NCBI GenBank assembly: GCA_018825985.1
Contig: JAHKAP010000018.1
Span: 4,134-68,133, forward strand
DNA from: Candidatus Omnitrophota bacterium
GTDB taxonomy: Bacteria; Omnitrophota; Gorgyraeia; Gygaellales; Profunditerraquicolaceae
Length of the DNA stretch: 64,000 bases
Direction: 5' to 3'
Of this stretch, positions 15,670-15,927 are shown one piece after another. Made by a program: the position numbers and the translations under genes. How positions within the stretch are numbered: position 1 is the first letter of the stretch; the number at the start of each line of letters is the position of its first letter. The notes under the pieces were generated by a model. The model ran no database searches, was not told the DNA's origin, and worked only from the letters and a program-made list of their open reading frames with translations.

Positions 15670-15773
15670 TCTACGTCTCCTATGTTTATCCGCCACAAAG
15701 TCGCCACATCGATAGGCGACCCGCTTTCTGTATGGCGGGCCTAACGGATTATTTGCCTGACAAGATAGAAAGC

Positions 15774-15839
15774 AAATAAAAAACCGCAAAGCCAGACCCA
15801 AATGATTTGTTCCGTGGCAATGCGGTTTAAATTAAACCG
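15774..15839 (-). promoter_or_regulatory. Attenuator-like alternative hairpins in the 5' leader of the giant gene
   Basis: Minus-strand RNA carries CGGUUUAAUUUAAACCG (a 17-nt perfect palindrome, 15823..15839). Its 3' arm overlaps AAACCGCA, which can pair instead with UGCGGUUU (15781..15788), followed by UUUUUUAUUU. The two structures are mutually exclusive and the second is terminator-like. Confidence 0.4.
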
Positions 15840-15898
15840 ATTTTCGCGCCTTCGCACCTCCATACGAAAACGCTTTTTAATCTTAAAAATCTACATTA

Positions 15899-15927
15899 AA
15901 TATAGCATAAAAACGTCTATTTTTCAA
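15899..15927 (-). promoter_or_regulatory. Sigma70-type promoter for the giant gene
   Basis: Minus strand reads TTGAAA (15922..15927), a 17-nt spacer, then TATATT (15899..15904). This predicts a 5' UTR of about 220 nt. Confidence 0.55.

What the first reader, a model, noticed from the sequence alone, without database searches (positions are those of the whole stretch)
15670..15927. Long structured leader with mutually exclusive hairpins (attenuator/riboswitch-like) ahead of the giant gene
The predicted promoter leaves a 5' UTR of about 220 nt. Within it, a perfect 17-nt palindrome (CGGUUUAAUUUAAACCG, 15823..15839) shares its 3' arm with the 5' arm of a second helix. That helix pairs AAACCGCA with UGCGGUUU (15781..15788) and is followed directly by UUUUUUAUUU. 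This is the antiterminator/terminator logic of attenuators. Upstream is another hairpin: UUUUCG at 15865..15870 pairs with CGAAAA at 15841..15846 on the RNA, enclosing a GAAG-capped mini-stem. I could not match any known riboswitch class. The track's alternative start at 15801 lies inside this structure.
Basis: seen in the sequence. Interest (0 to 1): 0.5.

Follow-up and report, generated by a model that had tools for sequence, protein, structure and literature searches.

The report
Conserved terminator leader of Omnitrophota giant genes
The untranslated stretch ahead of this giant gene is one copy of a previously undescribed, structurally conserved RNA leader (a hairpin displaying a ribosome-binding-site look-alike, then a transcription terminator) that sits in front of dozens of related giant secreted-protein genes in Omnitrophota bacteria and probably keeps them off until some factor lets transcription read through.

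Summary
The sequence features are real, and the gene is on the minus strand. A strong sigma-70-type promoter (15927..15899) predicts a 223-nt 5' UTR. Its first ~118 nt (15892..15774) are one copy of a conserved RNA element with three parts:
- hairpin P1 with an invariant GGAGG loop;
- a linker;
- a long hairpin P2 followed by U6, which is a canonical intrinsic terminator.

The element matches no Rfam family. It lies directly upstream, on the same strand, of at least 32 of 80 paralogous giant-protein genes in other Omnitrophota genomes. An RNA-only pattern scan of metagenomes gave 15 true elements, and all 15 lie upstream of such a gene.

P1 and P2 covary strongly: 11 of 20 pairs in an unfitted alignment, and 17 of 21 pairs with 96% of cells paired in a model-fitted one.

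The 17-nt palindrome acting as antiterminator is 7 bp only in this window, 5-6 bp in close relatives, and absent in most copies. It is absent in the ortholog that carries the same enzyme domains.

Best reading: a default-off transcription attenuator that needs a trans-acting factor for read-through. It is a new RNA family of a known kind, and the mechanism is inferred, not shown.

The parts
15899..15927 (-). Sigma-70-type promoter. The -35 is TTGAAA (15927..15922), followed by a 17-nt spacer that ends in TG (15907..15906). The -10 is TATATT (15904..15899). The predicted transcription start is A15892.
   Evidence: The consensus scan gives 10 of 12 matches with TG. The same CTTGAAAtt-N-TATGnTATAnT arrangement is conserved at the same distance from the RNA element in 10 other loci. 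It is also visible in most of the 80 loci. The start site is predicted, not mapped.
15846..15873 (-). Hairpin P1. The 5' arm is GCGUUUUCGUAU (15873..15862), the loop is GGAG (15861..15858, part of the conserved (A)UGGAGG(U) motif), and the 3' arm is GUGCGAAGGCGC (15857..15846). The loop is a Shine-Dalgarno look-alike with no start codon at a usable distance.
   Evidence: P1 is in the MFE and centroid folds and has -15.5 kcal/mol. GGAGG is invariant in 27 of 27 class-1 copies. All 9 modelled pairs show compensatory changes, and G-U pairs are frequent, which argues for RNA rather than a DNA palindrome.
15823..15839 (-). Linker palindrome CGGUUUAAUUUAAACCG. Its 3' half overlaps the 5' arm of P2.
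   Evidence: It has -5.1 kcal/mol and forms in the nascent transcript before the 3' arm of P2 is made. It is 7 bp here, p about 0.01. It is CGGUU/AACCG (5-6 bp) in about 10 close relatives, and 2-4 bp in the other copies tested. It is not in the consensus structure.
15774..15828 (-). Hairpin P2 plus tail, an intrinsic terminator. AAACCGCA-UU-GCCA...UGGC-UU-UGCGGUUU spans 15828..15781. It contains the conserved GCCACG (15818..15813) and GGGUC (15799..15795). The U tract is 15783..15778, followed by AUUU (15777..15774).
   Evidence: P2 has -21.7 kcal/mol. Its lower stem covaries: AU 15 and GC 11 at one pair, GC 17 and CG 9 at the next. The U6-8 tract is invariant. An ordinary gene-end terminator (L129) scores 41 bits on this half of the model, which shows that P2 looks like a normal terminator.
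15682..15773 (-). Lineage-specific structured spacer. It holds two further hairpins, roughly 15779..15749 and 15739..15691. It is not part of the conserved element.
   Evidence: The hairpins are predicted. No similarity to L006 or any other locus extends beyond about 15771. In most copies the U tract ends only 37-46 nt before the ATG.
15677..15680 (-). Shine-Dalgarno GGAG of the giant gene. It is essentially unpaired in the predicted fold.
   Evidence: It is read from the sequence, with its pairing state taken from the fold.
10816..15669 (-). Giant gene of 1617 aa. It has a signal peptide, a family-specific N-terminal module of about 400 aa, iPGM/metalloenzyme domains, and a family-specific C-terminal module of about 130 aa. 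The true start is ATG 15669. The TTG at 15801 is an ORF-extension artefact inside P2.
   Evidence: Domains come from Pfam. Homolog alignments begin at residues 1-3 of the ATG-started protein. Public gene calls use the same 1617-aa product.

Best explanation
Window 15927..15774 (minus strand) is a promoter followed by a ~118-nt cis-acting leader RNA. The leader belongs to an undescribed family that is specific to a large paralogous family of giant secreted proteins in Candidatus Omnitrophota.

Proposed mechanism: RNA polymerase starts at about 15892. It transcribes hairpin P1, which displays an invariant SD-like GGAGG loop, and then the long hairpin P2 with its U tract, where it terminates by default. 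The giant gene is expressed only when a trans-acting factor lets the polymerase read through. That factor would recognise the features shared by all leader variants: the P1 loop, the GCCAC(G) motif and the conserved top of P2. It is most likely an RNA-binding antiterminator or elongation factor, in the manner of LoaP-type leaders. Less likely candidates are the 30S subunit or a small ligand. In this window the weak palindromic hairpin may assist by occupying the terminator's 5' arm, but it is a lineage-specific accessory.

Shown: the conservation, the covariation of P1 and P2, the promoter-element-RBS order, the exclusive association with the gene family, and the absence of any Rfam match.

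Inferred: that P2 actually terminates, that read-through is regulated, and what the factor is.
For: Conservation:
- 15912..15774 aligns at 75-88% identity upstream of other family members, although the proteins are only 60-80% identical.
- Covariance model R1 finds the element at E = 1e-29 to 2e-3 in 32 of 80 loci. Every hit is on the gene's strand, 30-330 nt before the start.

Covariation:
- 8 of 21 pairs in the 11-sequence alignment.
- 11 of 20 pairs in the unfitted 27-sequence alignment.
- 17 of 21 pairs, 96.1% of cells paired and 0 of 500 shuffles in the fitted alignment, against 30-54% paired with slid partners.

Association:
- An RNA-only pattern scan of metagenomes found 16 model-positive sites. 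Fifteen have the family's N-terminal module 45-255 nt downstream, and the sixteenth is a plain terminator.

Leader rather than separate gene:
- The U tract ends 37-46 nt before the ATG in most copies, which leaves no room for another promoter.
- Loci without the element have the same promoter type directly before a short leader.

Terminators as a family hallmark:
- 57 of 80 loci have a hairpin plus U tract upstream, against 5 of 80 coding-sequence controls.

Factor rather than RNA switch:
- Conserved loops sit on variable stems.
- No conserved antiterminator helix exists.
- Different leader variants co-reside in one genome.

Precedent:
- LoaP-type leaders have a small protein-binding hairpin plus an intrinsic terminator ahead of unusually long transcription units (PMC12691694).
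Against: - There are no transcript data. The start site, termination at P2 and regulated read-through are all predictions.
- No candidate factor was identified, and no regulator gene is conserved next to the giant genes (and the window itself).
- The P1 loop is a GGAGG hexaloop, not the UNCG tetraloop that LoaP recognises.
- The test for internal terminators in the giant gene was inconclusive.
- Some sub-lineages do carry plausible RNA antiterminators. This window has 7 bp, and class 2a has a 7-10 bp helix between the 5' flank of P1 and the terminator arm. An RNA-only or ligand-driven switch is therefore not excluded in those.
- The fitted alignment leans towards the modelled structure.
Confidence: 0.5

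Rival explanations
1. Metabolite- or ion-sensing riboswitch. P1, the linker and the top of P2 would form an aptamer. Ligand binding would stabilise the linker hairpin here, or the outer helix in class 2a, against the terminator.
For: - The element has the promoter-structured RNA-terminator-gene layout typical of transcriptional riboswitches.
- Unpaired nucleotides are conserved (GGAGG, ACGR, RGG).
- In this window the palindrome forms first during transcription and is longer than chance, p about 0.01.
- Eight class-2a copies have a 7-10 bp helix whose 3' strand is the terminator's 5' arm.
- The cargo domains are largely glycolytic enzymes, which suggests a metabolic signal.
Against: - The alternative helices are not conserved across the family and show no compensatory changes.
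- Classes 1b and 2b have none.
- The conserved core is two simple hairpin loops, with no multi-helix junction or pseudoknot.
- The antiterminator is energetically feeble, -5 against -22 kcal/mol.
- The element matches no known class.
Confidence: 0.12
2. 5' mRNA stabiliser of the STAB-SD type. The SD look-alike in the P1 loop would bind the 30S subunit, or P1 itself would block 5' exonucleases, protecting the very long mRNA. P2 would then be a leaky terminator or structural element.
For: - An invariant GGAGG lies about 190 nt from the start codon, with no start codon or conserved short ORF behind it.
- It sits close to the predicted 5' end of a 5-kb mRNA.
- STAB-SD is an SD-like sequence far upstream in the UTR that stabilises cry3A mRNA through 30S binding (PMC12970973, which cites Agaisse and Lereclus 1996).
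Against: - This reading does not explain the invariant U tract, the covarying terminator stem or the conserved GCCACG/GGGUC.
- The SD mimic is held in a 4-8 nt hairpin loop rather than being free.
- Whether Omnitrophota have RNase J-type 5' exonucleolytic decay was not examined.
Confidence: 0.13
3. An independent small RNA gene of about 110 nt, with its own promoter and terminator, that merely lies upstream. It could be a multi-copy GGAGG-loop RNA acting in trans, for example as a sponge for a GGA-binding protein such as CsrA or for anti-SD sequences.
For: - It has a strong promoter and a strong terminator, so the short RNA should be the major product.
- There are several copies per genome.
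- GGA in a hairpin loop is the CsrA/Rsm recognition theme (my own knowledge, not tested here).
Against: - All 15 true copies found without reference to genes sit directly before a family member.
- The spacing to the RBS is short and conserved, and there is no second promoter.
- Only one GGA loop is conserved. The second GGA, in ACGGAA, is absent in about 40% of copies.
Confidence: 0.1
4. Conservation is largely a by-product. The 5' cassette (promoter, leader, N-terminal module) spreads among paralogs by duplication and gene conversion. P2 mainly insulates the giant gene from read-through of the co-directional housekeeping genes upstream, and P1 overlaps a DNA-level palindromic operator.
For: - The family is highly paralogous with a conserved 5' module.
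- The genes sit among co-directional housekeeping genes, with no obvious terminator after the upstream gene.
- The box (G)AAA-N-CG-N-TTTC that forms the 5' arm of class-1 P1 is about 50-fold enriched upstream of these genes. It also occurs upstream of the -35 in loci that lack the RNA element.
Against: - P1 stems of completely different sequence keep pairing and the same loop.
- G-U pairs and the far lower reverse-strand scores (22 against 84-113 bits) point to an RNA on one strand.
- A terminator placed downstream of the gene's own promoter cannot be a simple insulator.
Confidence: 0.1

Closest known systems
LoaP-dependent leaders (dfn and mln operons of Bacillus velezensis)
   Same: A 5' leader holds a small hairpin with a conserved loop, then an intrinsic terminator, ahead of an unusually long and costly transcription unit. 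No RNA antiterminator helix is needed, because a protein bound to the hairpin lets RNAP read through (PMC12691694).
   Different: - The loop here is GGAGG, not a UNCG tetraloop.
- The phylum is Omnitrophota, not Bacillota.
- The targets are single giant genes in many copies per genome, not polyketide operons.
- No NusG paralog was identified, and none is encoded next to the genes.
- The top of the terminator hairpin is itself sequence-conserved.
Transcriptional riboswitches and classical attenuators
   Same: Both have the order promoter, structured leader, hairpin plus U tract, then the regulated gene. In this window a small hairpin shares bases with the terminator's 5' arm.
   Different: There is no conserved alternative pairing across the family, no complex aptamer core, no leader peptide, and no match to any of 4227 Rfam models.
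STAB-SD element of cry3A mRNA
   Same: [quoted passage not shown]
   Different: Here the SD mimic is presented in a hairpin loop and is coupled to a conserved terminator. Any stabilising role is untested.
CsrA/Rsm-binding hairpins
   Same: Both have a GGA motif exposed in the loop of a short hairpin (my own knowledge).
   Different: Only one such loop is conserved per element. The loop consensus is UGGAGG rather than ANGGA. Whether the genome has CsrA was not tested.

Membership tests
Any described RNA family (Rfam 15, 4227 models) | A score at or above the family's gathering threshold. | tested here: not met
   The whole window at gathering thresholds gives only 3 tRNAs. The stretch 15500..16200 at E up to 10 gives only chance hits of 9-20 bits against cut-offs of 50-84. 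Twenty related loci show nothing on their leaders.
Terminator-based transcription attenuator / transcriptional riboswitch | The element lies in the 5' UTR, between the promoter and the start codon of the regulated gene. | tested here: met
   The promoter is at 15927..15899, the element at 15892..15774 and the ATG at 15669. The same order is seen in at least 32 loci. The start site itself is predicted only.
Terminator-based transcription attenuator / transcriptional riboswitch | An intrinsic terminator (G+C-containing hairpin followed directly by a U tract) lies upstream of the coding region. | tested here: met
   P2 has -21.7 kcal/mol and is followed by U6-A-U3. The stem covaries and the U tract is invariant. 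Actual termination was not measured.
Terminator-based transcription attenuator / transcriptional riboswitch | A conserved, mutually exclusive antiterminator helix. | tested here: not met
   It is not in the RNAalifold consensus. The class-1 mean best helix is 4.3 bp against 3.8 bp for shuffled linkers. Only this window (7 bp) and some class-2a copies (7-10 bp) stand out, and none shows a compensatory change apart from one in L112.
Terminator-based transcription attenuator / transcriptional riboswitch | A sensor domain that binds a ligand, tRNA, protein or ribosome and changes read-through. | not testable with these tools
LoaP-type processive antitermination leader | A small leader hairpin plus an intrinsic terminator ahead of a very long transcription unit. 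| tested here: met
   P1 plus P2 lie ahead of a 4.85-kb gene, and family members reach about 8 kb.
LoaP-type processive antitermination leader | A UNCG-tetraloop hairpin recognised by LoaP. | tested here: not met
   The loop is (A)UGGAGG(U) in all copies.
LoaP-type processive antitermination leader | A specialised NusG paralog encoded in the genome, usually near its target. | tested here: inconclusive
   None was found within 10 kb of three class-1 loci or among the 7 genes flanking the window's gene. Whole genomes were not searched.
STAB-SD-type 5' stabiliser | An SD-like sequence far upstream in the UTR with no start codon at initiation distance. | tested here: met
   GGAGG lies at 15861..15857, about 190 nt before the ATG. 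No AUG, GUG or UUG is conserved 5-12 nt downstream.
STAB-SD-type 5' stabiliser | 30S binding to the element prolongs mRNA half-life. | not testable with these tools
   This needs toeprinting and decay assays.
Trans-acting small RNA gene | The element occurs independently of a particular downstream gene. | tested here: not met
   All 15 true elements from a gene-blind metagenome scan lie directly upstream of the family's N-terminal module.

The most novel reading that the evidence does not exclude
The element is the cis-acting half of a phylum-specific regulon switch of a new class. A single RNA signature (an SD-mimic GGAGG hairpin, GCCAC, and a sequence-specific terminator top) would let one dedicated factor gate, by antitermination, the whole repertoire of giant secreted enzyme-carrying proteins of an Omnitrophota cell. 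That factor could be a novel RNA-binding antiterminator, the 30S subunit itself, or a metabolite. Expression of these costly proteins would thereby be tied to a host-contact or metabolic signal.
Probability: 0.3. Interest if true: 0.8.

Novelty: new variant of a known kind. Interest (0 to 1): 0.62.

Why it matters
Omnitrophota are uncultivated, ultra-small and probably host-dependent bacteria. Their giant proteins are suspected to mediate contact with or attack on other cells, and nothing is known about how those genes are controlled.

A covarying leader RNA that is shared by dozens of paralogs, occurs several times per genome and is absent from Rfam gives a concrete regulatory handle:
- It defines a regulon.
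- It predicts a short abundant terminated transcript that can be looked for in existing metatranscriptomes.
- It offers a bait (the P1 hairpin) for finding the factor.

For RNA biology it adds an orphan terminator-coupled motif whose conserved loop is a ribosome-binding-site mimic. For annotation it fixes the start codon (ATG 15669, not TTG 15801), and the covariance model can mark the 5' ends of this gene family in fragmentary assemblies.

Tried and rejected
- Near-identical assemblies (L001-L005) were 100% identical across the intergenic region and so uninformative.
- The window has no paralog of the gene and no repeat of the leader.
- A first automated parse of linker-terminator duplex energies mis-set the arm boundaries and was discarded. 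It was replaced by a longest-helix test.
- A column-wise pair count for the class-2a outer helix was abandoned, because MAFFT did not keep bulged stems in register. The helix is reported as conserved but without covariation.
- A home-made terminator detector was too permissive in coding sequence (76 hits in 64 kb). The LoaP-inspired test for internal terminators in the giant gene is therefore inconclusive.
- A leader-peptide model was rejected. The AUG in AUGGAGG is not conserved (CUG, CAG, CGG and UAG occur elsewhere), has no SD of its own, and no start codon follows GGAGG at initiation distance.
- A GGAGG-CCUCC pseudoknot or RBS-sequestering model was rejected. The leader has no CCUCC, and the real RBS is unpaired.
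- Hairpins at 15779..15691 were rejected as parts of the element, because they are not conserved even in the closest relative.
- Literature searches found no description of this RNA or of the N/C-module protein family.
- Neighbourhood inspection found no linked regulator.

Full report
**1. What is at the coordinates**

The giant gene is on the minus strand, so the leader reads from high to low coordinates.

- The upstream gene is a prepilin peptidase and ends at 16078.
- The giant ORF listed from TTG 15801 really starts at ATG 15669. Homologs align from residues 1-3 of that product, and public gene calls give the same 1617-aa protein.
- A GGAG ribosome-binding site lies at 15680..15677.
- A promoter-like site lies at 15927..15899: TTGAAA, a 17-nt spacer, TATATT, with an upstream TG, scoring 10 of 12.
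- That promoter predicts a start at about A15892 and a 223-nt 5' UTR.

The 236-nt leader folds better than all 200 dinucleotide shuffles, z = -2.94.

**2. No known RNA family**

- Rfam 15 at gathering thresholds finds only three tRNAs in the window.
- A permissive scan of 15500..16200 gives only chance hits far below the cut-offs.
- Twenty related loci likewise show nothing on their leaders.

**3. Source and gene family**

The window comes from a Candidatus Omnitrophota MAG.

The protein has four parts:
- a signal peptide;
- an N-terminal module of about 400 aa;
- iPGM/metalloenzyme domains;
- a C-terminal module of about 130 aa.

The two terminal modules recur at about 60-70% identity in hundreds of Omnitrophota proteins of 900-2800 aa. 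Their middles carry quite different enzymes, including PGK, enolase, TIM, GAPDH, PGI, PMM, PEP synthase, kinases, DnaJ and response regulators. A genome can hold several paralogs.

**4. The leader is a conserved element**

Five near-identical assemblies were uninformative. I therefore fetched 80 loci from species-representative genomes, using an alignment of the N-terminal module.

- Window 15912..15774 aligns at 75-88% identity upstream of ten of these genes.
- The alignment shows a conserved promoter, CTTGAAAtt-N-TATGnTATAnT, and an invariant A at the predicted start.
- It then shows a hairpin with a GGAGG loop, a variable linker, a long hairpin carrying UGCCACG...GGGUCGGC, and U6-8.
- RNAalifold on the RNA part gives two helices, P1 and P2, with 8 of 21 pairs compensated.

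A covariance model built from those 11 sequences finds the element at E from 1e-29 to 2e-3 in 32 of the 80 loci plus the window. Every hit is on the gene's strand, 30-330 nt before the start codon. About 11 further weak hits lie in the same place.

Covariation in the fitted 33-sequence alignment:

| Measure | Result |
|---|---|
| Cells paired | 96.1% |
| Pairs with compensatory changes | 17 of 21 |
| Shuffles reaching this | 0 of 500 |
| Cells paired with slid partners | 30-54% |

P1 stems of unrelated sequence carry the same (A)UGGAGG(U) loop; examples are GCGUUUUCGC, UGCCUUAAGUU, GUCCUGGAUU and UUGGCUG. G-U pairs are common. Reverse-strand scores are far lower (22 bits against 84-113 bits). 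Both points argue for an RNA on one strand rather than a DNA palindrome.

An independent MAFFT/RNAalifold run on 27 non-redundant class-1 copies again gives P1 and P2, with 11 of 20 pairs compensated.

**5. Gene-blind test of the association**

I scanned metagenome contigs with a pattern made only of RNA-element bases.

- The scan returned 44 stretches.
- Sixteen were model-positive.
- Fifteen of those 16 have the family's N-terminal module 45-255 nt downstream on the same strand.
- The sixteenth (L129) is an ordinary gene-end terminator with no P1.

So all 15 true elements precede a family member.

**6. It is a leader, not a separate gene**

- In most copies the U tract ends 37-46 nt before the ATG.
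- The intervening sequence (UAAAGAGAUUAAAAAAGGAG) is conserved and holds only the RBS.
- Loci without the element carry the same promoter type directly before a short leader.
- In the window and in L006 the gap is about 105 nt. In the window it is filled by two extra hairpins that are not conserved even in L006.
- A hairpin plus U tract occurs within 260 nt upstream in 57 of 80 loci, against 5 of 80 coding-sequence controls.
- The giant gene has its own compact terminator at about 10803..10756.

**7.

Energies in the window:

| Structure | kcal/mol |
|---|---|
| P1 | -15.5 |
| Palindromic hairpin | -5.1 |
| Terminator P2 | -21.7 |
| Whole element, terminator form | -40.9 |
| Whole element, palindrome enforced | -32.3 |

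The palindrome does form in the nascent transcript before the 3' arm of P2 exists. It is also longer than chance here, at 7 bp with p about 0.01.

Across the family it fails, however:
- About ten close relatives keep CGGUU/AACCG (5-6 bp).
- One copy (L112) shows a compensatory change.
- Most copies whose terminator arm reads CCAG have GCAGUU or unrelated linkers that form only 2-4 bp.
- The CCG-to-CCA change is compensated in the terminator's 3' arm (AU 15 against GC 11) but not in the linker.
- The class-1 mean best helix is 4.3 bp, against 3.8 bp for shuffled linkers.
- L007 is the ortholog by cargo (iPGM domains 70% identical). It has the element but only 2 bp of possible antiterminator.
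- RNAalifold does not call the helix.

**8. A second architecture**

More distant copies (class 2) place GCCAC(G/A) directly after P1. Their terminators read GCCGGAUUGAC...GGGUCAAUnCCGGC-U5-7.

- In eight of them, the bases 5' of P1 (AAUCCGGU) can pair over 7-10 bp with the terminator's 5' arm, p = 0.003-0.16.
- That gives a plausible antiterminator of different topology, but without compensatory changes.
- Another subgroup (class 2b) has none.
- Different variants co-reside in one genome.

The features common to all variants are the GGAG(G) loop on a variable stem, GCCAC, a GGGUC at the loop/3'-arm junction of P2, and the U tract.

**9. Mechanism**

Conserved loops on variable stems, no universal alternative helix, and a strong default terminator are the hallmarks of factor-dependent antitermination. 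They are not the hallmarks of an RNA-only switch.

The closest documented architecture is the LoaP leader. It has a small hairpin that binds a NusG paralog, followed by an intrinsic terminator, ahead of unusually long operons (PMC12691694). Membership is not claimed, for three reasons:
- The loop is not UNCG.
- No NusG paralog was found near the genes.
- The internal-terminator test was inconclusive.

The GGAGG loop is an SD mimic with no usable start codon behind it. This recalls STAB-SD stabilisers (PMC12970973), but that model leaves the terminator unexplained. The riboswitch, independent-sRNA and by-product/insulator readings keep smaller shares.

I put about 0.85 on [quoted passage not shown]. 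I put about 0.4-0.5 on [quoted passage not shown].

**10. Novelty**

Nothing in Rfam or in the searchable literature on Omnitrophota giant genes describes this RNA. The kind of element, a terminator-coupled 5' leader, is well known. The family, its SD-mimic loop, its multi-copy distribution and its tie to one giant-protein family are new.

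Noticed in passing
window 10816..15669 (-); P0001-P0120; L006-L085: The giant protein belongs to a very large Omnitrophota-specific family. A signal peptide, a conserved N-terminal module of about 400 aa and a conserved C-terminal module of about 130 aa flank highly variable enzyme 'cargo'. The cargo is iPGM here. Elsewhere it is PGK, enolase, TIM, GAPDH, PGI, PMM, PEP synthase, guanylate or adenylate kinase, DnaJ or a response regulator. 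Several paralogs occur per genome. Neither terminal module has a Pfam match.
   Followed up: partly
L006-L085, -330..-20 relative to the gene starts; window 15878..15866: A palindromic DNA box, (G)AAA-N-CG-N-TTTC, is about 50-fold enriched upstream of these genes: 54 hits in 30 loci, 1.10 per kb against 0.021 per kb elsewhere. It lies about 20 nt upstream of the -35 in loci without the RNA element, and it forms the 5' arm of P1 in class-1 leaders. It may be a transcription-factor operator.
   Followed up: partly
L060-L085, just after the predicted transcription start: Family members that lack the RNA element share a short-leader motif, (A/C)GGCUGAUAAACC, and the promoter CCTTGAA-N-CTTACCTATAT-GCATACTT. 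This looks like a different regulatory class for the same gene family.
   Followed up: no
window ~10756..10803 (-); L006, L009, L016, L033, L047, L064, L076 upstream regions: REP-like palindromes (GGGGACAGTCCCC, AAGTGTCCCCT...AGGGGACACTT) recur in Omnitrophota intergenic DNA, sometimes inserted between the leader terminator and the RBS. The terminator after the window's giant gene has a related stem, AGGGACACCC...GGGUGUCCCU.
   Followed up: no
L082:160-354 (+): Rfam reports a group I catalytic intron (76 bits, gathering score 50) about 1.1 kb upstream of a giant-gene paralog.
   Followed up: no
L051, about 240..100 nt upstream of the match at 1086: A tandem array of a ~23-nt unit (CAGTAGTCATCCCGCGGTTTGAT), with at least six copies, lies upstream of a family member.
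   Followed up: no
window 1..64000: All ORFs of at least 150 aa lie on the minus strand, except six that overlap minus-strand ORFs. GC skew is negative in every 2-kb bin. This is extreme co-directional gene orientation. Three tRNA genes lie at 35310..35627 (-).
   Followed up: no
window 15801 (-): The longest-ORF start (TTG 15801) lies inside the loop of terminator hairpin P2. It would add 44 spurious residues, and gene callers that use it would mask the leader.
   Followed up: yes
L132:16668-16868: A cold-shock-domain protein gene lies directly downstream of the iPGM-cargo ortholog (P0002). CSD proteins can melt terminators. The linkage is not seen in the window or in two other loci.
   Followed up: partly
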